Assembly (NCBI RefSeq): GCF_025526975.1 | Contig: NW_026515670.1 | Location: 372,001 to 436,000, forward strand | Reading direction: 5' to 3' | Source of the DNA: Fimicolochytrium jonesii | Taxonomy: Eukaryota | DNA: 64,000 bases | The notes under the pieces: model-generated | Seen by the model: only the letters and a program-made list of their open reading frames with translations | Told to the model about the DNA's origin: nothing | Databases searched by the model: none | Shown here: one piece after another, positions 7,801 to 54,451 of the stretch | Layout: every line of letters begins with the position of its first letter | Position numbering within the stretch: position 1 is the stretch's first letter | Position numbers and translations under genes: made by a program

Positions 7801-7879
7801 CAGGGGGTAGACCCTCCGGTTCCTTGAAGAGCGTATTGATGTATTTTTTTAGGATATCCTTGAGATGTCCTGGATTTCC
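4846..7879 (-). pseudogene. pol: A pol 3' part: RT, RNase H, integrase, chromodomain; many frameshifts
   Basis: FGLTNAPAAFQ, YLDD, YTDSSGYA, QTDGKVER, WIGPFKI, WVVEDIIDE..LLVKWLGYPHPTWEP. Confidence 0.93.
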
Positions 7880-8441: not shown

Positions 8442-8453
8442 TCACCCCTCTCT

Positions 8454-9527: not shown

Positions 9528-9532
9528 CCCGT

Positions 9533-10061: not shown

Positions 10062-10073
10062 GTTTGATCTGCT
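10062..10073 (+). promoter_or_regulatory. Self-priming-type PBS (non-tRNA) of C
   Basis: TTGATCTGCT (10064-10073) is complementary to AGCAGATCAA (9938-9947) in its own LTR; no TGG start. Confidence 0.8.
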
Positions 10074-10112
10074 CAACAACCCCCAGCTGCTGTGCCTCCA
10101 CGCCAAATCACC

Positions 10113-11039
10113 ATGTCCGACGCCCTTCCCCTCACGGCCGAAGCCTGGCAAGCCATGTGCAATGCGATTGACGAACTTCAAGCGCAGAATACCACCCTAC
10201 AAGCCGAACTAGCGCAAACCCAGACCACTGCCCCTGCCACCCACGCCCCCGAACCCAAAATCAGTCTCCCAGACAAATTTGATGGCACCCGGAGCAAGTT
10301 CCGTGGGTTCCTCAACCAGATCCGGCTCATGTTCGCCCTCCAACCCAGGCGCTACCCCAACAATCAGACCAAGATACGAACTATTGGCACCTACCTCACT
10401 GGCACCGCCCAGGCCTGGCTGGCGCCCCTTGTCGAACAAGACCATCATTCCCTTACGAACCTGGATGATTTCATCCAGCAAATGCAAGCAGTCTTTGGAG
10501 ACAGCGACAGGATCCGCACGTCCGAAAACAAGCTCCAGAACCTTCGACAAACCCGTGCAGCAACAGAGTATGTAGCTGAATTCCGACAGCTGCAATGCGA
10601 TGTGTCGTGGAATGACCAGGCATTGATTGCCACCTTCCGTCGCGGCCTCAAAGAAGACGTCAAGGACTTAATGCTCACGATGCCCCCTACCGCCTCAATC
10701 GACACCGTGATGGAACAGGCCATCCAATGTGACAACCGATTGTTTGAGCGCCGTCTAGAGCGAAGCAGGAACCGACAGCCATATGTGCCAGTTACCACTA
10801 GCCCCACCCTCATGAGCCCCGACAACCGCCCAGACGACCCTATGGTCATTGACGCTGCTCGTCCGCGAGGACCCCTCACACCGCTAGAGCGCCAACACCG
10901 CATCACAAACAAACTTTGCCTCTATTGTGGTAAACCTGGCCACATAGCCAAACTCTGCCCAAACAAATTACGCACGGCGAATGTCGCGGTTAAGGAACCT
11001 GCACCCATCCAGGATTTTGCCCAAGTCCAGCTGCAGTAA
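10113..11039 (+). CDS. gag: Gag of C (capsid plus CCHC knuckle)
   Basis: PDKFDGTRSKFRGF, LRQTRAATEYVAEF, CLYCGKPGHIAKLC. Confidence 0.95.
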   Translation: MSDALPLTAEAWQAMCNAIDELQAQNTTLQAELAQTQTTAPATHAPEPKISLPDKFDGTRSKFRGFLNQIRLMFALQPRRYPNNQTKIRTIGTYLTGTAQAWLAPLVEQDHHSLTNLDDFIQQMQAVFGDSDRIRTSENKLQNLRQTRAATEYVAEFRQLQCDVSWNDQALIATFRRGLKEDVKDLMLTMPPTASIDTVMEQAIQCDNRLFERRLERSRNRQPYVPVTTSPTLMSPDNRPDDPMVIDAARPRGPLTPLERQHRITNKLCLYCGKPGHIAKLCPNKLRTANVAVKEPAPIQDFAQVQLQ

Positions 11040-14000: not shown

Positions 14001-14866
14001 TCGCTCTCCTGGGAACCATGGTCAACCTCTCATCGGCGTTCCATCCCCAGAGCGATGGACAAACCGAGCGGACCAATCAGATTCTTGAGCAATACCTTCG
14101 CTGCTTTTGCAACTATCAACAAGATAACTGGAAGGAACTCTTGTCTTCTGCTGAGTTCTCTTACAATAACACCATCCACTCCGCCACCCAGACAACCCCC
14201 TTCTACGCCAACTATGGGTTCCATCCTCGATTCAGTCTGGCTTCCGCCACCACAACCGAATCCCTTAATCCTGCAGCCGAAGCTCGTGCCAACCATCTCA
14301 AGGAAATCCATGAACAGCTTGCCACTGAGCTCAAGGAGGCCCAAGGACGCATGAAGCGCTTTGCCGATGCTAAGAGGGCACCTGGCCCAGACATGAAACC
14401 CGGTCACAGTGTCTGGCTCTTACAGCGGAATCTCAAGACTCTCCGACCTTCCCAGAAACTTGATCACCGTAAGATTGGCCCCTTCACAATCACGGAGAAG
14501 ATCAACTCGGTCACATATCGCCTCAAGCTTCCCCCATCCTACAAAATTCACAACGTCTTCCATGTCTCCCTTCTTGAACCACGTTTCACCATTCCGGAGC
14601 GAACTGAGCCAGAACCCACCCCACCAGAAGAAGTCGAAGGACAGGAGGAATGGATTGTGGAAGACATTCTTGACTCCCGTATTCGACGCACGCACCTTCA
14701 GTACCTCATCAAGTGGCAGGGTTGGCCAAGCTCGGAGAACACATGGGAGCCAGTGGAACACCTTGCCCGATGTCAAGAGCTTGTAGCCCAGTTCCATCAA
14801 AAGTACCCCGACAAACCCCGACCAAAGCCTGCCAACATCAAAACAACATCTGGACGCCGTGGCTAA
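10994..14866 (+). CDS. pol: Pol of C (PR-RT-RH-IN-chromodomain), in the -1 frame to gag
   Basis: Frame open from 10994; LLDTGA, YLDD, ESDASD, H..GH..C..C, D-D-E, YLIKWQGWPSSENTWEP. Confidence 0.96.
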   Translation, partial: GTCTHPGFCPSPAAVKAEQLGNTCPGPSHHASTAKGEATKPCSDPGISSNTFLLTTNNVNLRSEIPSPMRILGPSSPFEYPVTLQISAQRAPVQLSALLDTGAMLCFIDESYARKHRIPLVKKEDPIALELVDGRPSHAGSITHHTQPLGMWVNDHFEEVVFHVTCSPHAPIILGLPWFELHDVELHWKTRTPCVRCHCGFGQYASWDALPTEPTPKPSRTPEPLIRIHQDEISVSLAQTPNTLDPAPTPIHVSFISAPAFRVAARHDQAFIAYANPTKSDSQALATTPPKDPKAIIPEEYQDFADVFAKKNAETLPEHRPYDCPIDLEEGKQPPFGPIYSLSEPEMQALCDYLEENLAKGFIKHSKSPAGAPVLFVKKKDGSLRLCVDYRGLNNITIKNRYPLPLINSIMDRLRGARRLTKIDLRGAYNLLRIRPGDEWKTAFRCRYGLFEYNVMPFGLTNAPGVFQHLMNDIFRDILDVFVVVYLDDILIFSKNPEDHPNHVREVLSRLRQHGLYAKPEKCEFNRDSVEFLGFIISQQGISMDPKKTAAITEWEPPTNVKGIQRFLGFANFYRRFIKGYSAIVAPLTTLTRKDLPFKWTHAAHLAFETLKKAFTSAPILTHPDPDKPFIVESDASDFALGAVLLQPDDTDQLHPVAFHSRKFTPEEINYEIYDKELLAIQDSFAQWRHHLIGARHKVIVYCDHKNLQYFMTTRTLNRGQSRWSIFFADFDFVITYRPGTQQHQADALSRRSEYELREGEEAFRSQETTILTPDHLRLAATYLTPLDSSLLDQIKAALASDVFAQTIRRQLRAPIAQQSQEDQERIKRFSEENGVLLYDNLVYVPTNKLRAEICRDMHDTHLAGHYGMSKTLELISRNYWWPSQWRFVKSYIRSCDVCAQAKTSRHKPYGLLQPLQVPDRPWGSISMDFITDLPASDGVDSVLVVICRFTKMAHFVPCRKTATAESTADLIWHHVIRLHGLPDDIVSDRGPQFNSHFWKRLFALLGTMVNLSSAFHPQSDGQTERTNQILEQYLRCFCNYQQDNWKELLSSAEFSYNNTIHSATQTTPFYANYGFHPRFSLASATTTESLNPAAEARANHLKEIHEQLATELKEAQGRMKRFADAKRAPGPDMKPGHSVWLLQRNLKTLRPSQKLDHRKIGPFTITEKINSVTYRLKLPPSYKIHNVFHVSLLEPRFTIPERTEPEPTPPEEVEGQEEWIVEDILDSRIRRTHLQYLIKWQGWPSSENTWEPVEHLARCQELVAQFHQKYPDKPRPKPANIKTTSGRRG

Positions 14867-14878
14867 AAGAGGGGGTGA

Positions 14879-15407
14879 TGTTATGGACGACGCGTCCATA
14901 CCATGCGCTTACCTCATGACAGCATCCCAACAGTCAGTCAATGTCAATTCCCTGTCCCAACCTGACATCTGCCAAACCTTGCAGCCGCACGCAGCCGCGC
15001 TACCCCACACCTGCCACTGCCTTCATTTCTCCACGCAGCCGCACGTAGCCACACCTCCCAACACTCGGCGCTTACAAACCCTTCTCCATACTTCCCCACG
15101 TACCCGCCCACAGCCTCAGCGTAGCCACCCCATCCCCAGTCTTCTGTTTCTATGCTTCCCCACCCTTGGCGCTTCTCTTGGCTTCCCCCCATTCCGTACC
15201 CTTCTGCTTCCCCACGCTTCCCCAGCCTTCCCAGAAAAACATAAATAGCCGCCTCCCCTGAGCTCCCCACTTCCTGATCCCCCAGCAGATCAACACCAGT
15301 TCTTCCTAGTCTTGTTCTAGTTCTTGTTTCGGTCTGAATACCATTACCTGTCAACAACCTGCACCACAAGTCGCCTCTATTTCCGTCGGCTCCGCCCATT
15401 CTTAACA
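14879..15407 (+). repeat. C 3' LTR
   Basis: Repeat of 9533-10061. Confidence 0.96.
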
Positions 15408-15412
15408 CCCGT

Positions 15413-18245
15413 CCACGGGAGGCAGACCGGTGATAAAGTCTAGGGACCAAGATCCCCAAGGGCGGGTAGGGATACTGTTGGGCTGGAGTAGGCCGTATGG
15501 TTTGTGTCGACTGGATTTCGCTTGGCTACAGGTATCGCAGGACTTGACGTAGGCCTTGACAAAGCGCCACTGGCTGGGCCACCAGTAGTTGCGGGAGGCG
15601 AGTTCGAGCGTCTTGGACATCCCAAAGTGGCCGGCTAGGGGAGTATCGTGCATGTCGTGGCAGACTTCAGCTCGGAGCTCGTTGGTGGGGACATAGACCA
15701 GGTTATCGTGCAGCAGGATCCCATCTTCATCTGAGAACCGCTTGATCCGATCTTGGGTTTCCTCAGTTCGTTGGGCGAGGGGTATCTTGAGCTTTTCGCG
15801 AATGGTCTTAGCGAGGGGATCAGAGGCCTGGGCGGCCTTAATCTTGTCAAGCAGCGTGGTATCCATGGGTGTGAGGTAGGCAGCCGCGAGTCGAAGGCGT
15901 TCTGGAGTCAAAATTGTGGTTGCCTGGGAGCGGAACGCTTCTTCCCCCTCTTTTAGCTCATGTTCGGAGCGTCGGGAGAGGGCATCGGCTTGGTGCTGCT
16001 GGGGACCGGGGCGATAGGTAATGACAAAGTCAAAATCCGAGAAGAATATCGACCAGCGGGCTTGGCGGCGGTTCAGGGTGCGGGTGGTCATGAAGTACTG
16101 AAGGTTTTTGTGGTCGGAGTAAACGGTGATCTTGTGACGGGCGCCAATGAGATGGTGGCGCCACTGGGCAAAGGAGTCTTGGATGGCTAGAAGTTCCTTG
16201 TCGTATATCTCGTAGTTGATCTCTTCGGCCGTGAATTTGCGAGAGTGGAAGGCCACGGGGTGGAGCTGATTGTCCTGGTCAGGTTGGAGGAGAACTGCGC
16301 CAAGAGCGAAGTCGGAGGCGTCAGTTTCGACGACGAAGGGCTTCTCTGGGTCAGGGTGAGCAAGGATGGGGGCGGTGGTGAATGCATTCTTCAGGTTCTC
16401 AAAGGCGGTGTTTGCGGCGGGTGTCCAGGCGTACGGGATGTCTTTCCGGGTCAGGGCTGTGAGCGGGGTAGCGATCTTGGAATAGCCCTGGATGAATCGG
16501 CGATAGAAGTTGGCAAAGCCGAGGAACCGCTGGACGCCTTTGACATTCTTGGGAGGTTCCCAATCCGTGATGGCAGCGATCTTCTTGGGGTCCATCTGGA
16601 TGCCTTTCTTGGAGATGATGAAGCCTAGGAACTCAACGGATTCGCGGTTGAATTCGCACTTCTCTGGTTTGGCGTACAACCCATGCTGTCGGAGGCGGGA
16701 CAAGACTTCGCGGACATGTTTGGGGTGATCTTCGGGGTTCTTGGAGAATATCAGGATATTGTCGAGGTAGACGACAACAAACACATCGAGAATGTCGCGG
16801 AATATGTCGTTCATCAGGTACTGGAAGACGCCAGGAGCATTGCTGAGTCCAAAGGGCATGACATTGTATTCAAATAGGCCGTAGCGGCAGCGGAAGGCGG
16901 TCTTCCATTCATCGCCCGGGCGCATGCGTAAGAGGTTATAAGCGCCGCGGAGGTCGATCTTGGTGAGACGGCGGGCGCCGCGCAAACAATCCATGATACC
17001 GTTGATCAGGGGCAGGGGGTAGCGATTCTTCACCGTGATGCTGTTCAGGCCTCGATAATCGACGCAGAGGCGGAGAGAACCGTCCTTTTTTTTCACGAAT
17101 AAGACTGGCGCACCGGCAGGGGACTTTGAGGGTTTGATGAATCCTTTGGCAAGGTTTTCTTCGAGGTATTCGCAGAGTGCCTTCATTTCTGGTTCGCTGA
17201 GGCTGTAGATCGGGCCGAAAGGTGGCTGCTTGCCTTCTTCCAGATCGATTGGACAGTCGTAGGGCCGGTGCTCGGGGAGAGTGTCAGCATTTCTCTTTTC
17301 GAAAACGTCGGCGAAGTCTCGATACTCGGGGGGCAGGAAGTCTTTGATGTCTTTCTCGGGTGTCAGGGGTTTACTGGGGCTAGGCAAGGCTGGGGGATCG
17401 GGTTTCGCAGGGTTGGCGTAGGCGACAAAGACCTGGTCATGCCTTGCTGCGACCCGGAAGGCTGGGGCGGAGATGAACGAGACTCGGAGCGGCGTGGGAG
17501 CCGGTCCTGGGGTGCTGAAGCCAGATACCTTGGGTACTGGAATCGACCATGTTTCGTCGACGGGGACTTCATCCTGGGGGATGCGGATCAAGGGCTCGGG
17601 GGTTCTGGCGGGTGCTGGGCTCGAGGGTGCTGGAGAGTTGTCCCAATTCGCGAATTCATGGTACAGACAGTCGCAACGGAAACCGACCGAAAGGTTCTTG
17701 AAGTCAAGGTTAATGTCGTGGAGGCGGAGCCAGGGGAGACCAAGGAGGATTGGAGCATGGGGTGATTTGGTGACATGGAAGACGAGTTCTTCGAAGTGGT
17801 CGTCGACCCACATGCCTACTGGTTGGGTGTGATGGGTGATTGGCCCAGCAGAACTGGGTTGACCGTCAACGAGTTCGATCGTCAGGGGACGCTGATGTTG
17901 GACTAGGGGGATGCGGTGTTTGCGGGCAAAGTCTCTGTCGATGAAGCAGGACAGGGCACCATTGTCAATCATGGCTGAGGTAGGTATTGGGGCGCGGCTG
18001 GATGATACCATGATGGTAACGGGGTAGTTGAAGGGTTCGAGGGGACCCAGCGCAAGCATGGCGCGGGGGTTAATTTCGGAGTTTTCGACATGGGCAGCGG
18101 CTAGGAGGGTTGTGTCGGCTATAACGGAGTCGGGAACCAGGGGGGTGGCCTCTCCCGTTGCAGGAGCTGTGAGGTTAGGAGGCCCGGGGCGGTGTGTGTT
18201 GTCCAGTCGCTGGGGCTTTACTGCGGCTGGACTTTGGGAAAACCC
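15413..18245 (-). pseudogene. pol: B pol 5' part (PR, RT with YLDN, RH, IN N-terminus)
   Basis: 885-aa ORF closely similar to C Pol; catalytic YLDD changed to YLDN; interrupted by C. Confidence 0.94.
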
Positions 18246-19216
18246 TGTTCGGTGGAGGGTTCTTTGGTGTCGACGTTGGCGGCACGGGTGGTGGTCTTGT
18301 TCTTGACGGGGCAGACTTTTGCAATGTGCCCCGCACCACCGCAGTAAAGGCAGAGGCTGTTGGAAATGCGGCGTTGGCGTTCCTGAGGGCTCAGAGGGCC
18401 GCGGGGACGAGCGGCGTCAATCTGCATGGGCTCGCTGTGGTCGACAGTGGTGGTAGTAGTAAACGAGGTATGGGGAACTGGGAAGGTCTGGCGGCTTCTG
18501 TTTCGCTCCAGGCGGCGCTCAAACAGCCGGTTATCGCACTGGATAGCCTGCTCCATCACCACATCAATGGTGGCCGCAGGGGGCATCGTGAGCATCAGGT
18601 CTTTAACGTCTTCTTTGAGGCCACGGCGGAAGGTAGCAATCAGGGCCTGGTCGTTCCAGGAGACATCGCATTGTAGCTGGCGGAACTCAGCGACGTACTC
18701 GGTTGCTGCACGGGTTTGGCGAAGGTTCTGGAGCTTGTTTTCAGAGGTGCAGACCCTGTCACTGTCTCCGAAGACCGATTGCATCTGACTGATAAAACTA
18801 TCGAAGTCCTGAAGGCTGTGATCTTGGCGTTCGACTAGGGGCGCCATCCAGGCTTGCGCAGTGCCGGTGAGGTAGGTGCCAATAGTTTGGATCTTGATGA
18901 TGTCGCTGGGGTAGCGGTCGGGCTGGAGAGCAAACATCAACCGGATGTTGTTCAACCACCCACGGAATTTGCTGCGGGTACCATCAAACTTCTCAGGCGA
19001 GCTGATTCTTGGCTCCAGAGCAGGGTTGGTGGCTTGGGGACGGGTGTACGTATCGGCTTGAACCTGGGCGGCGATGCTCTGGGCAGCTTGTGCGTCGGCT
19101 TGGGCTTGCGCTAGGTTGGCCTGCAAGTTGGCGTTTTGGCTTTGCAAGGCGGCGATGGCTTGGCACATATCGTTCCATTGCTTGGCGGTGAAAGGTACGG
19201 ATTCGGGTTGGGACAT
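18218..19216 (-). CDS. gag: Gag of B
   Basis: 332-aa ORF, PEKFDGTRSKF, CLYCGGAGHIAKVC. Confidence 0.94.
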   Translation of the reverse strand: MSQPESVPFTAKQWNDMCQAIAALQSQNANLQANLAQAQADAQAAQSIAAQVQADTYTRPQATNPALEPRISSPEKFDGTRSKFRGWLNNIRLMFALQPDRYPSDIIKIQTIGTYLTGTAQAWMAPLVERQDHSLQDFDSFISQMQSVFGDSDRVCTSENKLQNLRQTRAATEYVAEFRQLQCDVSWNDQALIATFRRGLKEDVKDLMLTMPPAATIDVVMEQAIQCDNRLFERRLERNRSRQTFPVPHTSFTTTTTVDHSEPMQIDAARPRGPLSPQERQRRISNSLCLYCGGAGHIAKVCPVKNKTTTRAANVDTKEPSTEQGFPKVQPQ

Positions 19217-19285
19217 GGCGAAAAAGGTTTGTCGGATGCAGGGCTGGACGGGTTCTGAACTTCGCAGTGTTGGAGCAGATCAAAC

Positions 19286-20384
19286 TGTTATGATCTCGAC
19301 GACGGAGGCGGAAGCGAAGTAGAGAAGACAGGGCGAGAGTGATAGGCGACAACAGATTGTATTGGCGAAACAAGAAACAAGGACTAGAACAGGAGATGAG
19401 AAGAACTGGTGTTGATCTGCTGGGGAGGAAGGGAACGGACGAAGAGAGGCCGGCTATTTATAGATAGGCAACCCAGTGTTAAGAATGGGCGGAGCCGATG
19501 GAAATAGAGGCGACTTGTGGTGCAGGTTGTTGACAGGTAATGGTATTCAGACCGAAACAAGAACTAGAACAAGACTAGGAAGAACTGGTGTTGATCTGCT
19601 GGGGGATCAGGAAGTGGGGAGCTCAGGGGAGGCGGCTCTTTATGCTTTTCTGGGAAGGCTGGGGAAGCGTGGGAAAGCAGAAGGGTACGGAATGAGAGGG
19701 AAGCCAAGAGAAGCGCCAAGGGTGGGGGAAGCATAGAAACAGAAGACTGGGGATGGGGTGGCTACGCTGAGGCTGTGGGCGGGTACGTGGGGAAGTATGA
19801 AGAAGGGTTTGTAAGCGCCGGGTGTTGGGAGGTGTGGCTACGTGCGGCTGCGTGGAGAAATGAAGGCAGTGGCAGGTGTGGGGTAGCACGGCTGCGTGCG
19901 GCTGCGAGGTTTGGCAGATGTCAGGTTTTGACAGGGAATTGACATTGACTGACTGTTGGGATGCTGTCATGAGGTAAGCGCATGGTATGGACGCGTCGTC
20001 CATAACACCCAGCAGATCAGAGAACAACAACAACAAGAGGGGACTGGGGGGGCGCCAGCTATGCTCCTAGAGCGTGCGTGGCGAGCGTAGAGAGCATTGC
20101 TACAGCTGCTGGCTATGGGGAAGTAGTGGGGGGTGTGGAGAAGCCGAGGGGGGATTAGCGAAATGAGAGGAGAGAGGAGGAGTGGCGATATTGCAAGAGG
20201 ATTGGCGAAATGAGAGGAGAGAGGGGGAGTGGCATTGACATTGACATTGACACTGACATTGACATTGACATTGACACTGACATTGACACTGACATTGACA
20301 TTGACATTGGCGTTTGACATTTGGCGGTTGACATTGGCGGCTGTCAGTAGGTAAGCTTATGGTATGGGCGCGTCGTCCATAACA
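19286..20384 (-). repeat. B 5' LTR, interrupted by a C-family solo LTR
   Basis: Matches 7880-8441 after removing 19477-20012; followed by PBS GTTTGATCTGCT at 19274-19285. Confidence 0.95.
19477..20007 (-). mobile_element. Solo LTR of the C family
   Basis: 531 bp; TSD CCCAG on both sides. Confidence 0.95.
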
Positions 20385-21190
20385 TTTCCTTCAAGCTCTT
20401 GAGGAGCGTCCGGTATTTCTCTAAGAGCGAGGCAACAGACCGTGTCTTTTTTAAACTTGTTCCGTCGCCAAGCCTTGATGAATGGCTTGGAAGTCATTTC
20501 TATGACTTGGGGATTGCGAAGGGCATTGGCTTGAGCAAATCGAGATACGTAATGAGGTGCGGCTTGTAAGGGACGAGTATCCACAGGTTTGATGATCCGA
20601 ACAGGTCGAACAGGTCTTTTGTCATAGACCGGATCTCGTTGCACATCAAAGTAAGGATTGTTGTGTTTCGGGATGTATTCGACGTCTTCCCAGTTTCTTG
20701 AAGTTCTTTCGCACTTGATGGTGACAGACTGCGGTGCGTTTGGTATAGGGCCGTAATTGGTCCAGCGAAGGATAGGTAAGGTACTCATCGAAAATTGTTC
20801 AGCATAATTAAAGAAACGCCAGAAAGGCATTCCAATAATAGCATCGTAAGCCAGATTACTGACTAGCCAGGGAAGTTGTCCAACTAAGAAAAGCGACTGA
20901 GATTCGAGATCCCGTAGATCTAACTTTTCCGAAATGACCGTGACGAGAATCATGTATGATTCTTTGTCGGCCAGCCATATCTGCTTCGGTTCGATACGTT
21001 TCTTGGGAAACTTGTACTTTTCGACGAATGTCTTGACAAGGAATAACCCATTTGCGCCGCTATCAAAGAGACCACAAGCAAACTTGTTTCCGATGCGACA
21101 ATGAGAGACCCAGAGTCCAGCAGACAGTGGTTCAAAGGCAGGTTTATTGGTAGGATCGTATGTTGTAGGCCTAGCAGAGCTACCGAGGAG
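20385..21190 (-). pseudogene. pol: A pol 5' part (protease region)
   Basis: SLIAAQMG (decayed active-site region), YDAIIGMPF; continues at 7879 across TSD TTTCC. Confidence 0.75.
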
Positions 21191-21192
21191 CT

Positions 21193-23032
21193 CTATTGAC
21201 CTTGGAAAAAACTCGAAGATTGATTTGTAGTAGTATTCGTAGTATTCGCAGAGTTGATGGCGTCATCGAGAATTTCCGTAATGCGTGACCCAGCATCAAC
21301 CTGATTGGCTGAACCTTGTTGTTGATTAGGTTGGCAACTGCGCTGCGGAGTTGGAGCGCTACGACCGCGCTGTTGAAAACCACCGCGTCGGTTCTGGGTT
21401 TGCAAGCCTTGCTGTCGATTTTCGGGATTTGACCAGCATTCAACTCTCCAATGTCCCATTTTGTTACAAAGGGGACAAGGAGTCGTTGGGCGTTGACGAG
21501 GAATGTGAGTAGTTTGCCATTGTCCACGTCGATGAAAGGGCTGTTGACATTGGTAGGGAACTTGACCTGTAGTGAGACGACTCACTCCAGGAGGATAGTA
21601 TGACGTACTGTGGGCATTGAGTGTTATGGACGACGCGTCCATACCATGCGCTTACCTCATGACAGCATCCCAACAGTCAGTCAATGTGAATTCCCTGTCA
21701 AAACCTGACATCTGCCAAACCTCGCAGCCGCACGCAGCCGCGCTACCCCACACCTGCCACTGCCTTCATTTCTCCACGCAGCCGCACGTAGCCACACCTC
21801 CCAACACTCGGCGCTTACAAACCCTTCTTCATACTTCCCCACGTACCCGCCCACAGCCTCAGCGTAGCCACCCCATCCCCAGTCTTCTGTTTCTATGCTT
21901 CCCCCACCCTTGGCGCTTCTCTTGGCTTCCCTCTCATTCCGTACCCTTCTGCTTCCCCACGCTTCCCCAGCCTTCCCAGAAAAGCATAAATAGCCGCCTC
22001 CCCTGAGCTCCCCACTTCCTGATCCCCCAGCAGATCAACACCAGTTCTTCCTAGTCTTGTTCTAGTTCTTGTTTCGGTCTGAATACCATTACCTGTCAAC
22101 AACCTGCACCACAAGTCGCCTCTATTTCCGTCGGCTCCGCCCATTCATAACATTGAGCCCCAAGGTCATATCATCTAAGTCTTGCTCAAATTCCGTAATC
22201 CGAGGATTGGTGTAAGGGGCGAATCGTCTGCCACGACCACCGCCGTGACTACCTCGACCGCGGCTGCCTCCACGGCCGCCACGGGCACTCCATGCCAAGG
22301 TAATCAGACGAGGCGTATTGGGCGTATTGGCTTGGTTGCCGTCAGTGAGCCCGTGAGCCACATGAGCACGACGAGCTGCAGTGATAGCTTGATCGAGAGT
22401 GATAGGGGTGTTGATGTTGGTAGTGCCCAAGACTTCAAAGTTTGTAACGGCTTCAGCAAGATAATGACCGATTACCGTATTCTTGAGAAGACCGGCCTTG
22501 AAGTACCGATATATTTGTCAAGGAAGTCTCCGAGCTTGAGACCGGAGAGCTTGAGCTCAATAGTATTGCGCAAGTTGCGAGGATAAAAGTGAGCGACAAG
22601 AGCCGTTTCAAAAGCTGTCCAACTTGCGGGAGCGCCGGAGGCGTAAGTCGTATTGTACCACTCGAGAGCAGTACCCTTGAGATAGGCAGTGAGCGTAGGG
22701 GCATACTCTGCCATAGTAAAGGGTATGGCACTTGCAGCTCCAGTACCGTCTGTTCCAGCTGCTACAGCCGGGAAAGTGAGAGACTCGAGAAAGTTGTGGT
22801 GAGACGTAACGAACTCTTCGATCTTTTTGGCAGCTTTGGCGCCATCGTATTCGACGAACTTATTCTTGCGAGCGTCCATAAGAAGTTTGAAACGTTCGGC
22901 TCGTTGGGTGTCTGATAGCTTGAGTCTGTCCGTCCATTCTTGCTTGTAAACAAGTGTGTGGGCGACGTCCGGTAGAAGGGCAACGTTGACGAGGAATGTC
23001 TCGGTGATGCTAGCGGTAGGTGGTGCTACCAT
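21193..23032 (-). pseudogene. gag: A gag, frameshifted and split by a solo LTR
   Basis: YLKGTALEWY, RGG stretch, CPLCNKMGHWRVEC; ends at slippery T TTT TTC. Confidence 0.88.
21622..22152 (+). mobile_element. Solo LTR of the C family in A gag
   Basis: 531 bp; TSD TTGAG. Confidence 0.95.
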
Positions 23033-23306
23033 GTAACGTCAGAGGAAACGTAGACGATATTGGGCCCTTCTGAGAGGGCTGAGAGCAGTGTATTGTAGTG
23101 AAGAAGTAGGTAATAAGCTCTTCGCAGCGGCCGCTCAACTGACAGCTTTATATATGGGCTGCCAGTGGGGCTTGCGTGGCTTCAGTGAGGCTTGGCGCCT
23201 TATGTAATGTATCACCGAGAGCTCGGATGGCCAGCCCGGGTCTTGGATCAAGTAGAAGTAAAGAGATACAATATGAAATACAAGTGAGGATGAGATATCC
23301 CTGACA
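23032..23306 (-). repeat. A 5' LTR
   Basis: Followed on the minus strand by PBS TGGTAGCACCAC. Confidence 0.95.
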
Positions 23307-23664
23307 TCGTCCACGTATACCAGGCAGAAGCTGTACTTTAGTCCTGCTAGGACCGCGTCCATCACACGTTGGAAGGTGGGCGGAGAATTCTTGAGGCCGA
23401 ACGGGAGTTTGTTGTACTCAAACAGCCCATGGGGTGTACAGAAGGCTGTGAGGTGCTTGTGTTCTTCCTTGATCGCTACCTGCCAGAATCCCCAGTGTAA
23501 GTCCATGGTTGTAAACCACTTATTGCCGGCGAGGAATTCAATGGTCAAGTTGATTCGAGGCAGCGGATAGGAGTCGGGTATCGTCTTTGCGTTGAGTTCG
23601 CGGTAGTCAGTGACGAACCTTAGTCCACCCCCATCCTGACTAGCGACACTGGAGCGGCCCATGG

Positions 23665-23826
23665 TGTCAAGGGAATCGTCCCAATCGCTCGGAACGCCCC
23701 GTAGAGGTGGTACAGTCACAGAAACAAAAGAAAAATGTTTGGGGAAGGTAGGAATCGAACCCACGCCACCTGGGTGAGAGCCAGGTGTCTTAACCACTAA
23801 GCCAAAATGTCTGTGTTCCCGTTACA
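23665..23826 (-). mobile_element. 162-bp solo LTR (family D) containing a tRNA-like cassette
   Basis: TGTAAC...TTGACA; TSD CATGG 23660-23664 / 23827-23831. Confidence 0.93.
23740..23811 (-). tRNA. tRNA-Glu(CTC)-derived pseudo-tRNA inside LTR-D
   Basis: A box TGGCTTAGTGG, anticodon arm CCTGG-CTCTCAC-CCAGG, T arm GTGGG-TTCGATT-CCTAC, T5 run downstream; acceptor stem not paired. Confidence 0.8.
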
Positions 23827-24644
23827 CATGGTGATCTACTGGGTCGGATGATGTTGTCCTTCAGCATCGTGTCGGTGTGCTCTCGTAGGACCTTCTCTTT
23901 CTCCTGGCCCTGTCGGCGTGGAGGGTGGGCGATGGGAAGAGTCTCAGGCATTATCTTCATGTGGTGTTTGGAATGTTTGGCTTGTCCGGAATTTGGGGGT
24001 CGAACGCTTCCGCATTCGCTAGGAGCACGTCCCGTAATGCTTTGTCTTCTTCTGGTGTCAGGTGTGCCCAAGGCGCCATTGCTTCTATTTGGTCTCGTCC
24101 TCGGCGGGCGGCTGGTGACACGTGGGATTGCTCGTCCTCCAGAGGGGTGGCGGCCGCTTCCAAATCCTTCATCTTGTGAATGACTGATGTCTTCGCCAGT
24201 TCGCCAATCTTCCCTTGCCCCAACCCTTTCACCTCCACTGGTCCCTCTTCCGGCTCGTCCGTTCCGTAGGTCTTCACTTCCTCTTGGCTCTGAAGCATGT
24301 AGAATGCTGAGCCGGTGGTGCTTCTTAATCTGGGCATCTTCCAATGGCGTTGGCCGGCGGCCTTTGGGCCGTTCGGCCATGCGGGCGGCGGTGGCGGTAG
24401 GTCATTCTTCAGGTTTTCGGTCAACCATCCGCTCAGCTTCTCCTCCGTCAGATACGCTTCAGGCACTGGTTCTACCCGTAGGTCGTGGTTGCTGGCGGTG
24501 GCCATTCCGACGACATGATTCTTCCGAAGGATGCGCTTCCTGGGCGTGAGATTTGCAACCGGGTACAGCCATTCTCCGTTCTCGTCGGCCTTCCCGAGTT
24601 GGTTCGCACACCATATGCCTGACTCGCCTAACGCCTTGTTGCCT

Positions 24645-26690
24645 TCAACAAGGTATGTTGTTCCGGGGATTCCTTGCTTCCTTCCGCCCACCCGTACGTG
24701 CGTCACCGCCCTTGGCTTCAACACTACTCGGTCCTGCTCTATGACTAGTGTTGTAGCGTGATGGCCCTAGCGGAGCGACCGTCGGGAGGTGGGTGTGAAG
24801 GGGATGGTCTTCTAGTGTTATCTTCATGGGCGTGGTCATTTGCTCGTCGGTTGGTAGTCGGAAGGCGAATGATCTCTTCTCCATGTCCATGACTGCCCCC
24901 ATTGCGTCGAGCCCTGGGATGCCGATAAGCACCGGTCGTCCCAAGTTGGAAATGATGTTGAACTTCAACTTGTAACTGTGCCGTCCGTTGACGCCGGGCT
25001 TGACCCTCAATTCAACGTGGCCTATTGAACGGCCTTCGCCAATTCCCGACAGCTTGCGCTCATACTTGGTGGCCTTGATCTTCGAGCCGTGCTTGGTCTT
25101 CAGCATCATGTAAAACTCAGCGTCCATGCCGTTGAGACTTGCTGCAGTGTTGACAACAAGCTCGTCGAGAGGCGTGTCCTCAATCTTCCCGTAGATCTGC
25201 GCAATGGTGTACATCTTGCGTAGGTCAGGACTACTTGTCGTGTCCTTTTTGACGTGGGCATGAAGGGAATCAAGGAGGGTGTCCTCCTTGCCTTCATTGG
25301 GGGGAATGATCATGCGGTCGTCCGTGAGGTACAGCTCTCGGGACCCTTTCCAGGCGTGGAATCTTTCTTCATTTCCAGCAACCGAAGCAATCCAGGTGTC
25401 CTGGGCGGGTAAGTTGTCCCCAGGATGCGCGGTGATCTCGTACTTTTCTCCGACATCGAGGTACCGCCTTGCCTTGCTCAGCAATTCTCCCGTGACTATC
25501 GTCAAGTCTTTCAGGAAGAATTGCACCTTGGGGTCATACTCGTTCGTTCCGACTTGTTTCCAGGAAAGGCTGTCGAGGAATTCTCTCTTCAATGCCTTGC
25601 GTTGCCGTCGCTTGACCGTCTTCTCCAGAAGCATTATCTCTTCCAGTGAACCCCTCTTGTGTGCTTCCGATATGGCCATGTCAATTGCCACCGCCTTGGC
25701 GTCCTCCTCCCCTTTTTTGTCCAATATCGCTGGTGGGCGCCGACGGATGGAGAGAATGTTCCGGAATGGAATCCGTAGAAAGGACAGAGTTCCTGCGTAG
25801 CAGTCTTGGAATGGCAGGCGCTTGACATGGTGGGGGCCGGTCTTGAAGGACCACGCTTGGCGCAACCGGTCTCGGAAGTGGTGAATGGCAGCCGAGTCAC
25901 CGGAGATTCTCCATGCCGCGGTGTGTTCCCAGGGCGGGAGCCCGGAAACACCTTCATCTTGTTCACGGAAGCCGCCCTTGGCGAAGAGGTCTCGTTCGTG
26001 GGTCAGCAATTTCGGATAGTCGATGAGGAGCGTGAGGAGCTGAAGGTACCTTGGAGCTTCACGCCATACGGGGGTAATCAGCGTAATGGTCGCTCCGTCC
26101 GTGACGACCTTGTCAAGCACTTGCTGAATGGCGAGCCAAAGGGGATTGGCCCAGCCATTCTCAGCGTCCCAGCGAATCTTGAAGGCGTTGTGGGCAATTG
26201 CATTGGCGTCCGTCTGGTCGACCGAGCAGTACCTTGAAACCTGGGCGTTCTGCTTCGCGGCAAAGAGGTCCACGGTGTGGCCGTGGGGGCCTCCCTAGGG
26301 TCCGTCATCGAGTTGCTGGAAGATGTCCAGGTGCAATTGCCAATCATTCTTGTCAACCAGGTTGATCAAGTAGAGTTCCTTTTCGGGTGGCAGAGACGGG
26401 TAGCGTGTTCTGTCAGGGTCCTCCGAGTCGGGTTTTTCTTCTCCCGACTTGGACAGGGGTTGGGGTTGTAACGATTCGTCAGCTGTCATTATTTCTCCGC
26501 GCGTCCCCCAGTCGCTTTCGGAGTTGGAATCACTGCCTCTTCTCAGTTCTGATGGTGACCGAGCAGGAAAGGTCAGGCTTTCATCCTGGTCTTGAGGCAG
26601 CGATTCTCCGGGGTCCTCCCGCTCAAGAGCCGTTGGTTCCAGGACTAGGAGGCTCTCGGCTCCTAGCCCCGGCGGGGAAAATGCCGCTTC
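24645..26690 (-). pseudogene. pol: H Pol N-terminus: Dam-like N6-adenine MTase domain (about 25900-26348) followed by aspartic protease
   Basis: NDWQL..F..L..*GGP..TVDLFA..N..RYCS..NAF..W...WANPLW..I..VLDK..A.ITLITPVW; protease VVNTAAS..VLIGIPGL; one in-frame TAG at 26295-26297. Confidence 0.82.
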
Positions 26691-28600
26691 TCAGCATTGG
26701 CATTTACCACTTCGGGGCTTTGTTTCTTGGGGCACATTGGTCTCCCCGTCTCGCGGTCCACGTTGTCCTTGAAGTGGTCGCCTCCGCAGGCGTAACACTT
26801 TCCGTCCCCGATCCTTGGTGGTCCTCCCGAGGACTGGCCATTGTTAATCTGCACCTTGGCCATTTGCGCGGGAATTTTGGCAACTGCTTTCTTGACGACT
26901 TCCTGTACTTGCGTACTGAGGTCGTTCTGCCTCCGCTGGCCGTAGTCGTTGCGCGGGTACGGCTGGCAGGGGTATGGACCTTGTCGTCGGTCCATCATGT
27001 ACGCCTCGTAACCGGAGTAATCATCCCGGTTGTCGTCAAATTCCGTCAAGTGTACTGCCCGTCCCATGTGTCCGCGTTGGCTACCGGTCAAGCGGAGTTC
27101 CTCTTTGAACTTGGTTATCTCGTTCTCCGCCGCCCGTTTAGCTAGCTTCTCGATGTCGACGGTAGGCATGGGGCTTGGCGGGGCGATTTGGACGGCCGTC
27201 TTCAGAATGGGCGACGGAGATCCTCGTCGCTGGGGCCGGAACCTCCTGTTGTTCTTCTTGTTCCGGTGACGATGGCTGCGTTCGTCTTCCGAGGAAGAAG
27301 CTGAGGAGGAGCCACTGGAGCTTGACTCCGAGTCCGAGGAGGACGAGGAGGAGCATCGGGCGTGGCGCCGGCTTCAGAGCCGTTTCTTGTCAATTCTTTG
27401 GTACGCTTCTTCGGCAAATTGGTCGAATGTCACCGCCCCGTCGTACCAGTCCTTGCCACCTATCTTCACTTCCTTGATCTTGTCTTGCTCACGAGGCTTG
27501 TGACCTTGGTAGAAGGCATACTTGAGCTGGCCTAGCTCCAGGGCATTGGCGCCGAGGCGATGATTGGCTTCCTTGATGCGGATGGCGAAGTCGCGTGACG
27601 TTTCCTTCTTGAGTTTCTTCATACTGGCTACTTTTGCCGAGCGGTAGATAGGGGGTATCTTCTCGTCGTATTGAGCCATGAATTGTTCCGTGAATCGCTC
27701 AAATGGAATGTTGGTCGACGACAGGCTGCTCCACCATTTCTTTGCCCCATCCTTGAAGAGGGGACCGAACTTGGGCACCATGTCGTCGAGGTTATCGAAG
27801 TACTTTTGGTCCACGGCCCTTTGAGCTTCTTGCTTCAGTCTCTCCAGGAATGCGTATGGATCCTTGCCCGGCTTGCCTTTGAATCTCGCCAAGATGTCAT
27901 TCTTCATCTTCCAGTGGGCTCGCTCGGATCCTCTTGCCGCTGCTTCAAGTACTGTGGCCGCTGAGGCCGCTCGGGGAACTCCTGCGGGGGTGCCGTCCGC
28001 CATTTCGGGATTCCTTCTAGCAACCGGCGTGAACCAGGTGTCCTCCTACTCCCTTTCCTGGTCGGGAGTCTGCGCTCGGGCTTGTTCTTGCGAGGTCGCC
28101 GGGGCCACAGCAGCAGTGGCTGGATGGATGGATGGATGGGTAGACGGGGGTTGCGCTGGAGGATCCGCGGGGGAATCCTGAGCAGGTGGTCCTGATACTG
28201 GGGCTGGTGGAGTGCTTGGGAAGCCGCCTGGGAAGCTGCTTGGTCTTGTGGTTGTCCGGGACGGGTTCGCACCGGATGATGGGCCTTGTTCTGACGACAA
28301 ACTCTCAGACGAGGATTCCTCGGAGGAGGATTCCTTGGACTGGGATTCCTTGGACGGGGAATCCGTGGACTTGGCTTTGCCTGTCGGCTTGCGTTCTCTC
28401 TTGATGAGCAGAGAACTTCGGTATCGCTTGTAGGCTGCTCGTTTGGCTGTCGCGCTGCTCGCCGCAATTGCTTCCCCGGTTGACGACCGGCTTGAGGAGC
28501 GGCTTGCGGAGCGGAGACTGGCGACAAATTCTGCGTCGGCCAGTTTCGCTATCTTGATCTTGGTGAAGATCTATCGACTGATCATCAGTGTCTGGTGGAG
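26663..28600 (-). pseudogene. gag: H gag, fragmented
   Basis: RFKGKPGKDPYAFLE..GAKKWW..MKKLKKETSRDFAIRI; knuckle-like CYACGGDH. Confidence 0.8.
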
Positions 28601-29204
28601 ATTGGTGCTTCGCTTCTCCGTAGGGAAACAGAGAATGCGACGCGTGAGTAGGTTTCTTGTAAGGTGGCAGATGTGGTTTGCCAATCCGATCTTGGAAATG
28701 ACCTCGTAGATTCCTTGTAATTCCTTCCTTGTTTTTCCTTGAAGGTGGTCTCTCCTTGTTCCCGGCCAAGCCCCCAAAATGTGAAAGTGGTCAATTATTC
28801 CCTGAGATAGGTCCTAAATCGGGTCGTTCGCGGGTGGAGATGATCTACTCGTGGAGAGGGCAAGGTAAAAGGTACAGACCAACTAAATCCCTATTCTCAC
28901 CACACAAGTAGACATGCTTGAGCGTACTCCATATATTGGCCACCCCGGACTGCTAGGCGTAGGTACGCTAGTCAGTTGGGTCAGTTGAGCTCCTATGGTA
29001 CAAACTTATGGTCTAGTCTATCGCCGGTAAGATGCTCTCTGGGCAATCTACGCCAGTGTCGTCCTTTTTATAGTGGGGGGGGAAGGGGGTGTGTCTCTAT
29101 CCTACTACTGATCACGCCTGGTCACGCGCGCACAAATACTAATCTTCCCTTGAATCTCCCCATCTCCTTGTACGCCGTCAACCTGATCACTTTCACACAC
29201 TCCT

Positions 29205-31606
29205 GTTGTTGTCCCGGCGACCTCTCAAGAACATGTTGGAGATATCATCCTCCCAAGTCCCTAGTTAGGGTTCCCGTAGTCTAGTCCCTGGTTAGGGTTC
29301 TAGTAGTTTATTTCCCCATGTGACTTCCCTCCCGCTCACGCCACGCTTCCGCGTACGGGACTTCACTCTTTTCGTCCCTTTCGGACCTCGCGACCTCTTT
29401 CTACTTCAGACAAGTCCACAGACAACACTGCATTACTTCTTATACATACAAGGGCGTGTCCTCCCCATTACATAGAGTTCACTCCTCTATCTGCTTCCTC
29501 TGCCAACTACTGCTAAGTGAACAGGCCTGAGCACAGACCCCTGACTGAGGACTGGAACGAGAGGACGTCTGGTACACACCGATTGCCAGAAGGAATCCCG
29601 ATCGGGATCAACAGCAAATGGCAGACCGAACACGCACTAGAGCTGGCCCAGTGGCTCTATCGGTCGCCACTGTACTTAAGCGGCGGCAAGAGGATTCGAG
29701 CGAGCCCATTGGAAGTTGAAGAATGACTTCTCGGCAAGATTCAAGGGCAAGCTGGGCGAAGACATGTATGGATTTCTCGAGAGATTGAAGCAGGAAGCTC
29801 AAAGCCGTAGACCAAAAGTATTTTGATAGCCTCAATGACATGGTGCCCTTGTGCAGCAGTCTGTCGTCGACCAACATTACGTTTGAGCAATCCAAGGAGC
29901 AATTCTTAGCTCAATACGACTAGAAGATACCTCCTATCCACCGCTCGGCAAAGGTACCCAGGATGAAGAAGCTCAAGAATTAAACGTTGCACGACTTCTC
30001 AATTCGAGTCAAGGAAGCTACTTTCCACCTCGGTGACGATGCTCTTAACCTAGGCCATCTCAAGTGCGCCTTCTACCAAGGCCACAGGCCTCGTGAGCAG
30101 GACAAAATCGAGGAGGTGAAGATAGCCGGACAGAATTGATAAGATGTGACAACAAGAAACGGCTCTGAAGCCGGCGCCACGCCCGAAGCTCCTCCTCTTC
30201 CTCATTGTACTCGTAGTTGAGTACCAGTGGCTCCTCGTCTGTTTCTTCTTCAGAAGAAGAACGCAGACGTTGTTGCCGTAACAGGAAGAACAACAAGAAG
30301 TTCCGGCCTCAGCGACAAGGATCCCCATCGCCGATTCTGAAGATGCCCGTTCAAATTGCCCCACCTAGCACCATGCCTACCACGGACATTGAAAAGCTCG
30401 CAAAGCAGGCGGCAGAGGATGAGATCACCAAGTTCAAAGAAGAACTCTGTTTGACAGGTAGCCAACGGACACCTAGGATGGGCTGTGCACCTGACGGAAT
30501 CCGACGATGACCGGGATGATTACTCCAGTTACCAAGCGTACATGATGGACCAACAACAAGGTCCCTACCTCCGCCAGCTGTACCCACGCAACGACTACGG
30601 CCAGCAGAGGCAGAACGGCCCCAGTACGCAAGTTCAAGAAGTTGTGAAGAAGGCGGTCGCTGAGATGGCCGCACAAATAGCCAAGGTGCAAATTACCAAT
30701 GGCCAGTCCTTGGGAGGATCACCGAGGATCGGAGACGGAAAGTGTTTTGCCTGAGGGGATGACGACTTCAAGGGCGACGTGGACCGTGAGACAAGGAGAC
30801 CAGTATGCCCCAAGAAACAAAGCCCCAAGGTGGGAACTGCCAATGCTGACAAGCGGCATAGTCCCTGCCAGGGCTAGGAGCCTTCCAGTCCTGGAACACA
30901 TGGCTCTTGAGCAGAAAGGCCATGGAGAATTGCTGCCTCAAGATCAGAATGAAAGTCCGACCTTTCCCGCTCGGTCACCATCAGAACCAATAAGAGGGAG
31001 TGATTCCGACTCCACAAGCAACTGGGAAACTCGAGGAGAGAGAACAATAGCTGACAATTTGTTACAACCCCAACACCTGTCCAAGTCAAGAGACAAAAAA
31101 CTTGACTTGGAGGACCCTAACCAAACCCGCTACCCGTCTTCGCCGCCCGAAAAAGAACTTTACTTGATCAACTTGGTTGACAAGAACGATTTTCAATTAC
31201 ACCCCAACATCTTCCAGCAACTCAACCAACGAATCTCCCACGACGCTTTCGAAATTTGTTGGAACACCGCGATTGGTTGGGCCAAGCCCCCTTGGCTAGC
31301 CATTCAACAGGTGCTTGACAAGGTTGTCACAGATGGAGCGACCATTACTCAGATCACCCCAGTATGGTGAGAAGCTCCATGGTACCTCCAGCTCCTCACG
31401 CTCCTTGTCGACTGTCCCAAGTTGCTGAACCACAAATGAGACATCTTCGCCAAGGGCGGCTTCCGTGAACAAGATGAAGGTGTTTACGGGCTTCCACCCT
31501 CCAGTGATTCTGCCGCCATTCACCACTTCCGAGACCGGATGCGCCAAGCGTGGACATACAAGACCGGCCCCCGCCATGTCAAGCGCCTTCCATTCCAAGA
31601 CTGCTA
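29205..31606 (+). mobile_element. Diverged inverted copy of H gag and MTase region (H')
   Basis: Collinear with the reverse complement of about 28105-25795; WAKPPWLAIQQVLDKVVTDGATI; internal deletions. Confidence 0.9.
29234..29518 (+). mobile_element. Solo LTR of the Copia-2 family (TG...GT ends)
   Basis: Homologous to 60323-60556; TSD GAACA 29229-29233 / 29519-29523. Confidence 0.9.
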
Positions 31607-39138: not shown

Positions 39139-39166
39139 ACACCTATATCAGCTAAAGGTTCCAATA

Positions 39167-54363: not shown

Positions 54364-54451
54364 CCGCCCGAAGGCTTTTCTTCCCTTCAGGAGTCATCCC
54401 AGAGCGTAGGACTCCAAAACAATATATGCTACACGTGATCTCATGCCCTAA

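What the first reader, a model, noticed from the sequence alone, without database searches (positions are those of the whole stretch)
25900..26348. Ty3/Gypsy chromovirus-like element carrying a DNA N6-adenine methyltransferase-like domain at the front of Pol
Seen: between gag and protease of element H, in the protease frame, the text reads DWQL..F..L..(W)GGP..TVDLFA..N..YCS..NAF..W...WANPLW..I..VLDK..LITPVW. The diverged copy H' reads WAKPPW (31284-31295), so the two copies together reconstruct NPPW. The same element has a DDE integrase and a chromodomain, linked through the TCGTC TSD. Established: DLFA and (N/D)PP(W/Y/F) are motifs I and IV of the phage-Dam-like MTase carried by DIRS1-type tyrosine-recombinase retroelements, where it follows RNase H. 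It is not a standard Gypsy domain. 6mA marks active genes in early-diverging fungi. Inference: a reader-plus-writer retroelement that could 6mA-mark its cDNA or insertion site to evade silencing.
Basis: partly seen in the sequence, partly recalled or inferred. Interest (0 to 1): 0.9.

Follow-up and report, generated by a model that had tools for sequence, protein, structure and literature searches.

The report
Gypsy retrotransposon with front-end adenine methyltransferase
A broken copy of a Gypsy-type jumping gene carries an adenine-methyltransferase-fold domain at the front of its enzyme gene, and relatives keep that domain's catalytic motif intact, so the family likely methylates its own copies; elements of this kind were first described in a 2026 preprint.

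Summary
Observation confirmed. Element H reads LTR–gag–methyltransferase (MT)–protease–RT–RNase H–integrase–chromodomain. A 20-kb insert with a TCGTC duplication splits YVDD. The MT model (pLDDT 90.8) is a Rossmann N6-adenine methyltransferase; best match PCIF1 (Z 12.2), T4 Dam 8.1. It belongs to the family and is no stray DIRS piece. Three unrelated database elements repeat MT-before-protease, and the two best integrase hits lie on contigs of the same length as top MT hits. NPPW is intact in 5 of 5 relatives that span it, and dN/dS between H and H' is 0.18. H itself is dead (stop, NPLW, protease Asp replaced by Asn). Corrections: the RT tree puts the family outside the sampled chromoviruses, and the fungal host is unproven. 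The kind is known: bioRxiv 10.64898/2026.05.21.726589 describes DAM-LTRs, and this scan noted the same order on other DNA (e1-9985233, e1-9855803). Activity is unshown (that paper's E. coli test was negative). New member of a known kind, possibly a separate lineage.

The parts
28780..29197 (-). 5' LTR of element H (TG...CA, 10-bp terminal inverted repeat); the 3' LTR was not found in the window
   Evidence: ends TGTGAAAGTG / CACTTTCACA; no second copy of this LTR found by self-BLAST
28759..28779 (-). Primer-binding-site-like stretch right after the LTR; resembles a tRNA-Pro site (recalled, not tested)
   Evidence: sequence; assignment from memory
26663..28045 (-). gag: capsid, Ser-rich tract and zinc-knuckle-like end; in-frame TGA at 27374-27376
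   Evidence: Pfam Retrotrans_gag E 3.7e-6; ORFs
26358..26690 (-). Acidic/Pro/Ser-rich spacer at the head of the pol frame; the gag-pol shift is unresolved because H and H' differ by a 7-nt indel here
   Evidence: dN/dS 0.42
25854..26357 (-). Dam-like / PCIF1-like N6-adenine methyltransferase domain, decayed in this copy (TAG 26295-26297; DLFA 26259-26270; NPLW 26136-26147; PRY where relatives have PWY)
24819..25220 (-). Retropepsin-fold aspartic protease in the same frame as the MT; Asn stands where the four relatives aligned have the catalytic Asp
   Evidence: alignment; profile vs DDI1 E 5e-4; Foldseek E 1.2e-6, TM 0.73
23307..23969 (-). 5' part of reverse transcriptase up to YVD, interrupted by a 162-bp solo LTR at 23665-23826 (TSD CCATG)
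   Evidence: Pfam RVT_1 E 4e-21
3152..23306 (.). Nested 20-kb LTR-element insert (not part of H) flanked by TSD TCGTC (3147-3151, 23307-23311)
2345..3146 (-). 3' part of RT and RNase H (frameshifted)
   Evidence: tblastn with P0158/P0159, 52-56% identity
900..2100 (-). DDE integrase with H2C2 zinc finger; TAG at 1389-1391; limits approximate
   Evidence: Pfam H2C2 E 7e-15, rve E 1.3e-9
516..659 (-). Chromodomain, with Trp at the three places that I take for the aromatic cage (cage positions recalled from HP1)
   Evidence: Pfam Chromo E 3e-6; sequence
29519..31606 (+). H': truncated sister copy (gag, spacer, MT remnant 31176-31547 with WAKPPW at 31278-31295, DLFA segment deleted), 77-81% nucleotide identity to H

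Best explanation
Element H is a dead copy of a Ty3/Gypsy LTR retrotransposon family whose Pol begins with a DIRS-type N6-adenine methyltransferase-fold domain, which in intact members likely methylates the element's own nucleic acid during reverse transcription so that new copies would stay transcribable. Shown: the domain order LTR-gag-MT-PR-RT-RH-IN-chromodomain, the fold, the conservation of DLFA and NPPW across relatives, purifying selection, and the decay of this copy. Inferred: Pol is made as Gag-Pol and the protease frees the N-terminal MT inside the particle. There it uses SAM to put N6-methyladenine on the RNA:DNA intermediate or new cDNA. The chromodomain-tailed integrase would steer the copy into methylated heterochromatin, and the adenine marks would seed maintenance by a host 6mA enzyme (AMT1) and offset the host's CpG-type silencing. 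Odds by step: domain identity about 0.97; family feature about 0.95; catalytically active in intact members about 0.65; DNA or hybrid as substrate, with the anti-silencing role, about 0.45.
For: Fold: AF2 pLDDT 90.8, pTM 0.87. VIA-align gave PCIF1 Z 12.2 (rmsd 3.2, 152 aligned), then N6-adenine and other class I MTases, T4 Dam Z 8.1 (rmsd 2.6, 111 aligned); Foldseek top 6 rows are PCIF1, E 3e-5 to 3e-4. Family feature: P0007 (817 aa, MT-linker-PR-start of RT, 53% in MT), P0025 and P0014 (MT...PR) are colinear with H. The two best of 18 integrase hits, P0158 (61%) and P0159 (46%), come from contigs of 11016 and 28653 bp, the lengths of the contigs of MT hits P0013/P0025 and P0008. H is closest to the 11016-bp element in both the MT and the RT tree. 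NPPW in 5 of 5 relatives spanning the motif. dN/dS H vs H' over 111 MT codons 0.18 (bootstrap 0.09-0.33), like gag 0.21. Window repeats show C/T differences at 104 of 1419 CG sites against 102 of 4701 CHH sites (p 4e-18), as expected if the host silences repeats with 5mCG. The 2026 preprint reports more 6mA on DAM-LTR copies in three species and more expression in two.
Against: No enzyme of this family has been shown active: the preprint's E. coli expression gave no 6mA gain, and Iyer et al. 2016 judged DIRS MT domains likely inactive (passage). The best structural match is an RNA cap methyltransferase, not a DNA enzyme. The preprint's 6mA enrichment is a correlation, and 6mA is usually tied to active chromatin while a chromodomain points to heterochromatin. 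H shows no ApT or GATC enrichment (ApT observed/expected 0.99). The host and its AMT1 status are unknown. Same-contig links of the relatives rest on equal contig length and colinearity, not on DNA I could read. Purifying selection does not distinguish catalysis from binding.
Confidence: 0.45

Rival explanations
1. The domain is an RNA methyltransferase in the manner of PCIF1: released into the particle, it would put m6A or cap-adjacent m6Am on the element's genomic RNA (or its primer tRNA) to stabilise it, aid packaging or dodge RNA silencing.
For: PCIF1 is the top structural match, 2.7 Z units above the next row; rRNA adenine methyltransferases (DIMT1/KsgA/Erm, METTL5) also outrank T4 Dam. 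Two relatives hit Pfam PCIF1_WW at E 1e-4 to 5e-4. Iyer et al. place DIRS MTs in the PCIF1 clade. An RNA substrate would explain the negative E. coli DNA assay.
Against: Only 14-17% identity to PCIF1, and no WW or helical cap-binding partner domain is seen in the element. Pfam's best family is phage Dam. DAM-LTR copies carry more genomic 6mA.
Confidence: 0.27
2. The domain is kept for a non-catalytic role (binding nucleic acid or SAM, a scaffold in the particle, or a decoy for host methyl-adenine machinery).
For: Iyer et al. 2016 call DIRS MT copies likely inactive. Among the 150 best hits the strand-4 Asn is replaced or not found in 18 of 59 DIRS-type, 30 of 76 MT-only and 3 of 15 LTR-type proteins. 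Negative heterologous assay.
Against: This family keeps DLF and NPPW in 5 of 5 relatives at 40-60% identity, which a pure scaffold would not need.
Confidence: 0.24
3. The segment is a stray DIRS fragment or an assembly chimera lodged between gag and protease of an ordinary Gypsy element.
For: The window is a nest of broken elements; 59 of the 150 best hits are DIRS-type RT-MT proteins.
Against: Of 38 ORFs from six DIRS-type loci, only the MT matches between 23.9 and 31.8 kb, with no DIRS RT, RH or recombinase beside it. The MT is in frame with the protease, present in H', and in the same place in independent database elements. The family MTs form a 99/97 clade.
Confidence: 0.03

Closest known systems
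DAM-LTR retrotransposons (Fernandez-Moreno et al., bioRxiv 10.64898/2026.05.21.726589; whole main text read; figures not held, supplements closed)
   Same: Ty3/Gypsy LTR element with a DIRS-type DAM domain, NPP motif kept; chromodomain as in their Chlorophyta chromovirus-like lineage; same proposed model (6mA seeded on the reverse-transcription intermediate and maintained by AMT1).
   Different: MT lies before the protease, not between RT and integrase as in their Chloro-Ochrophyta lineage; has a chromodomain, unlike their ichthyosporean lineage; no DNMT, unlike EpiLTRs; RT falls outside the chromoviruses I sampled. Their main text never says 'fung' or 'protease', so I cannot tell whether their Fig. 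2B already shows this order.
DIRS1-type tyrosine-recombinase retrotransposon MT domain (Pfam Dam PF05869; Muszewska et al. 2013, PMC3783388, passages read)
   Same: Homologous domain: 35-42% identity to the MT of six DIRS-type loci; same DLFA and NPP motifs.
   Different: There it follows RNase H, and DIRS elements lack protease and DDE integrase; H has both and no tyrosine recombinase was found beside it.
PCIF1/CAPAM cap-specific adenosine N6-methyltransferase (group-2 N6A-MTases of Iyer et al. 2016, PMC4738411, passages read)
   Same: Best solved-structure match (Z 12.2). The model shows the group-2 pattern: an N-terminal helix before the core and coils around strand 3.
   Different: 14-17% identity; minimal 170-aa domain in a retrotransposon polyprotein; substrate untested.
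Chromoviruses (Neumann et al. 2019, PMC6317226, passages) and Chronos elements (Ustyantsev et al. 2017, PMC5348765, passages)
   Same: Gypsy order PR-RT-RH-IN with a C-terminal chromodomain and 5-bp TSDs among the nested elements.
   Different: H's family is not inside the sampled chromovirus RT clade. Chronos shows that chromodomains have been gained outside chromoviruses; no second, archaeal-type RNase H was reported by Pfam for P0158/P0159.

Membership tests
DAM-LTR retrotransposons | DAM-like domain of the eukaryotic (DIRS-type) family | tested here: met
   2069 hits at E<=1e-3, 59 of the best 150 DIRS-type; 24 of 34 hits scanned carry Pfam Dam at E<=1e-3; fold. H's own Pfam score (E 0.075) is below the preprint's 1e-5 cut-off.
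DAM-LTR retrotransposons | Ty3/Gypsy RT with DDE integrase and LTRs, no tyrosine recombinase | tested here: met
   RT-RH tree, Pfam rve/H2C2, 5' LTR, no DIRS ORF match beside the MT. 3' LTR not found in the window.
DAM-LTR retrotransposons | Asn-Pro-Pro catalytic triplet | tested here: met
   Met for the family: NPPW in 5 of 5 relatives spanning it. Not met in the two window copies (NPLW in H, KPPW in H').
DAM-LTR retrotransposons | Membership of one of the five published lineages (DAM and RT trees) | not testable with these tools
   The preprint's sequences, figures and supplements were not available.
DAM-LTR retrotransposons | Host encodes AMT1; copies enriched for 6mA | not testable with these tools
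   No whole genome is held; no methylome.
Chromovirus (Ty3/Gypsy lineage) | Chromodomain after the integrase | tested here: met
   Pfam Chromo in H, P0158 and P0159
Chromovirus (Ty3/Gypsy lineage) | RT-RH falls inside the chromovirus clade | tested here: not met
   The family (100/99) lies outside the 8-row clade (100/99) that holds the window's Tcn1-like elements and a Haematococcus chromodomain element; nesting with the Tcn1-like pair rejected, p-AU 0.003; sister position not rejected, p 0.35. No curated reference elements were in the tree; 'Tcn1-like' is my recalled label.
DIRS1-type tyrosine-recombinase elements | RT-RH-MT order, tyrosine recombinase, no protease or DDE integrase | tested here: not met
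   MT precedes a retropepsin; DDE integrase present; no DIRS RT, RH or recombinase match nearby
EpiLTRs | C5-cytosine methyltransferase in addition to DAM and chromodomain | tested here: not met
   No DNMT family hit in H's ORFs or in P0007, P0025, P0158, P0159; H's far 3' end is outside the window.
N6-adenine methyltransferases (group 2, PCIF1 clade) | Rossmann class I fold with motif I and strand-4 (N/D/S)PP(Y/F/W) | tested here: met
N6-adenine methyltransferases (group 2, PCIF1 clade) | SAM-dependent methyl transfer to adenine N6 | not testable with these tools
   needs a bench assay

The most novel reading that the evidence does not exclude
The family is a further, undescribed DAM-LTR lineage: a non-chromovirus Gypsy clade that gained both a chromodomain and an N-terminal, protease-released PCIF1-like methyltransferase with an intact active site. 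It would live in a host group, such as fungi, where the 2026 preprint's text names no DAM-LTRs, and it may act on RNA or RNA:DNA hybrid rather than on duplex DNA.
Probability: 0.3. Interest if true: 0.62.

Novelty: new member of a known kind. Interest (0 to 1): 0.4.

Why it matters
Whether retrotransposon-borne Dam-like domains are enzymes at all, and on what substrate, is open: one review calls them inactive and the only heterologous test I read of was negative. This family offers naturally delimited, motif-intact domains (P0007, P0008) at the N-terminus of Pol. Such a domain is likely released as a free protein, so it is a better assay subject than one wedged between RNase H and integrase. 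If it is active, a selfish element writes a host 'active' mark on itself while reading a repressive one. The concept is already in print, so the value is as a test case and possible extra lineage, not as a first.

Tried and rejected
No whole genome is held, so copy number, host genes and AMT1 could not be examined. Pfam, PHROGs and PDB sequence searches with the decayed segment alone gave nothing significant; the profile search of PDB with A1 was dominated by RNase H flanks. The search for homologous proteins with the 549-aa ORF at near length: 0 of 7998 candidates passed (no evidence either way). Sequencing runs: none was listed. Viral contigs: 0 of 36 candidate stretches confirmed. Metagenome contigs: 9 of 163 confirmed; the six I used as references (L001-3, L007-9) have RT and MT in one ORF, DIRS-like, and none showed the family's order, so no relative's DNA was read. 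Host lineage: Atlas look-ups for taxa did not complete. The mutation spectrum shows CG bias without CWG bias (15 of 1240 vs 51 of 2972 CWH, p 0.28), which weakly disfavours a land plant but does not separate fungi from algae. Independent origin of the front-end placement is not shown: one clade of the family with P0173 (p-AU 0.63) or with P0010/P0017 (p 0.59) is not rejected. A clade with the post-RNase-H DAM-LTRs P0001/28/40/85 is rejected on RT (p 0.001). Errors of mine: P0173 was labelled 'postRH' but has Dam before its protease; the 'post-MT linker' row was out of frame and is discarded; one window RT (6148 region) gave no hit and dropped out of the tree. Literature searches. Among the titles and abstract openings listed I saw no other paper on DAM in LTR elements than the preprint; most subscription journals are not searched.

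Full report
1. Observation. H' on the plus strand (29519-31606, 77-81% identical) reads WAKPPW at 31278-31295 but lacks 34 codons that include DLFA. The motif pair occurs once in the six frames of the window. Alone, the segment scores only E 0.075 against Pfam Dam, but it has 2069 relatives at E<=1e-3 among 1.84 billion representatives.

2. Anatomy of element H. A 418-bp LTR with 10-bp inverted ends (29197-28780) is followed by a primer-site-like stretch and gag (Pfam E 4e-6). The pol frame holds a roughly 110-aa spacer, the MT (26357-25854), a linker and a protease (25220-24819). The protease is a retropepsin by profile (DDI1, E 5e-4) and by fold (E 1.2e-6, TM 0.73). RT follows, cut by a 162-bp solo LTR and then by a 20-kb nested element whose TCGTC duplication (3147-3151, 23307-23311) splits YVDD. 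Beyond it lie RNase H, integrase and chromodomain. The 3' LTR was not found in the window. H is dead: stops, frameshifts, NPLW for NPPW, PRY for PWY, and Asn at the protease's catalytic Asp.

3. What the domain is. AlphaFold2 on a 74-row alignment, with X at the stop, gave pLDDT 90.8 and pTM 0.87. Against 48,161 solved chains the best match is PCIF1/CAPAM (Z 12.2, rmsd 3.2, 152 aligned). Next come an archaeal RNA methyltransferase (9.5), DIMT1/KsgA/Erm (8.2-9.2), METTL5 (8.8), T4 Dam and M.TaqI (8.1); Foldseek agrees. Iyer et al. 2016 place DIRS MT domains in the PCIF1 clade and think them likely inactive (passages). Of the 150 best sequence hits, 59 are DIRS-type RT-MT proteins, 76 show MT only and 15 are LTR-type: 3 with MT before protease, 11 with MT after RT/RNase H or directly before the integrase, and 1 with MT between an endonuclease-like domain and RT.

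4. It belongs to the family. The top hits P0007 (53%), P0008 (56%), P0009, P0013, P0014 and P0025 share the domain; P0007, P0025 and P0014 continue into the same protease. An independent search with H's integrase gave 18 hits. The best two, P0158 (61%, RT-RH-IN-chromo) and P0159 (46%, PR-RT-RH-IN-chromo in one 1605-aa ORF), come from contigs of 11016 and 28653 bp, the lengths recorded for P0013/P0025 and for P0008. Their matches tile H in order. I infer, from length and colinearity only, that these are two further elements of the same design. In a 57-row MT tree (H, 20 LTR-type or front-end hits, the best 32 of 59 DIRS-type hits, 4 loci) the family is a 99/97 clade. In a 35-row RT-RH tree it is a 100/99 clade, with H nearest the 11016-bp element both times. 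NPPW is intact in 5 of 5 relatives spanning it. dN/dS between H and H' is 0.18 (0.09-0.33) over 111 MT codons, against 0.21 for both gag parts and 0.42 for the spacer (one out-of-frame row discarded). Of 38 ORFs from six DIRS-type loci only the MT matches in the 23.9-31.8 kb region.

5. The family is not inside the chromovirus clade I could sample: nesting with the window's two Tcn1-like elements is rejected (p-AU 0.003), a sister position is not (p 0.35), and a clade with four post-RNase-H DAM-LTRs is rejected (p 0.001) (30 rows; P0053, P0169 and the DIRS rows left out). No curated references were available. Chromodomains are known outside chromoviruses (Chronos; passages). The host is unknown: no genome, no run listed, Atlas unanswered. 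Repeats in the window mutate at CG (104 of 1419) far more than at CHH (102 of 4701) and not at CWG. This fits CG methylation in a fungus or alga but does not decide between them.

6. How it most likely works. Shown: order, fold, motifs, selection. Inferred from retrotransposon biology: Gag-Pol is cut by the protease, the N-terminal MT is freed in the particle and meets the genomic RNA, the hybrid and the cDNA. I commit to adenine methylation of the element's own DNA or hybrid, which would seed host-maintained 6mA and keep new copies transcribable after chromodomain-guided insertion into heterochromatin (0.45). An RNA-directed PCIF1-like role (0.27) and a non-catalytic role (0.24) remain open. 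Against the main model: the preprint's E. coli assay was negative, the best fold match acts on RNA, and H shows no ApT or GATC bias.

7. What is known. Fernandez-Moreno et al. (bioRxiv 10.64898/2026.05.21.726589; whole main text read; figures not held, supplements closed) report the first DAM domains in non-DIRS LTR elements. They describe five lineages (Chlorophyta chromovirus-like, Chloro-Ochrophyta, ichthyosporean, Pyropia, Euglena), association with AMT1 in 9 of 13 species, more 6mA on these copies, and the same model. Their text gives the domain's position for one lineage only and never mentions fungi or the protease; their Fig. 2B and supplements may already show this order or this family. 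The front-end position also occurs in P0173, a member of the chromovirus clade, and a single origin with H's family is not rejected. This scan noted DAM-LTRs on other DNA several times, two of them with MT between gag and protease (e1-9985233, e1-9855803; unchecked AI notes). One note (e1-7216416) warned that this order can be a junction of two broken copies; I tested that for H and it does not hold. Searches listed no other paper on DAM in LTR elements that I could recognise from titles and abstract openings. de Mendoza et al. 2018 (PMC5890265) I saw only as a search listing.

8. Verdict. Real, well supported as a DAM-LTR, and dead in this copy; a new member of a kind described in 2026. There is about a 0.3 chance that it is a separate lineage in a new host group. 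Interest 0.4.

Noticed in passing
window 23665-23826, 54202-54364, 58181-58343: A 162-bp LTR-like unit (TGT...ACA) that contains a tRNA-like sequence with CTC at the anticodon place (Rfam tRNA 34.9 bits, above the gathering score of 29). The first copy has a CCATG duplication and splits H's RT; the second is followed by a TGGTAGCA primer-site-like stretch. It may be an LTR with a built-in Pol III promoter.
   Followed up: partly
protein P0173 (JGI, 1340 aa): An element inside the chromovirus RT clade with Dam (residues 7-99, NPPF) before its protease in one ORF: the front-end position is not unique to H's family.
   Followed up: partly
protein P0053 (2382 aa): Protease, endonuclease/exonuclease/phosphatase domain, Dam, RT, RNase H, integrase in one ORF; a long branch in the RT tree. 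It may correspond to the mixed LINE-like DAM-LTRs of the preprint.
   Followed up: no
protein P0018 and window 43449-45098, 56686-58230, 4846-7098: P0018, with Dam between RNase H and integrase, is the RT sister (100/100) of a window element, yet no MT is detected in the window outside H and H': recent gain or loss of the domain in that chromovirus group.
   Followed up: partly
window 27374-27376 and 30166-30168: H and H' share an in-frame TGA in gag between capsid and zinc-knuckle regions; an inherited lesion, a CpG hot spot or read-through.
   Followed up: no
whole window: C/T differences between repeat copies are highest at TCG (49 of 382 sites, against 63 of 1068 at other CG). A TCG-biased process is recalled for some basidiomycetes, but this was not tested.
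   Followed up: partly
window 31722-38199 and 39166-45624: A 6.5-kb inverted duplication (96% identical overall; 99% over 4.4 kb) of nested Gypsy/Copia sequence with about 1 kb between the arms.
   Followed up: no
window 10068-14866: An apparently intact chromodomain Gypsy element (323-aa gag and 1290-aa pol ORFs) inside the nested insert, among otherwise broken elements.
   Followed up: no
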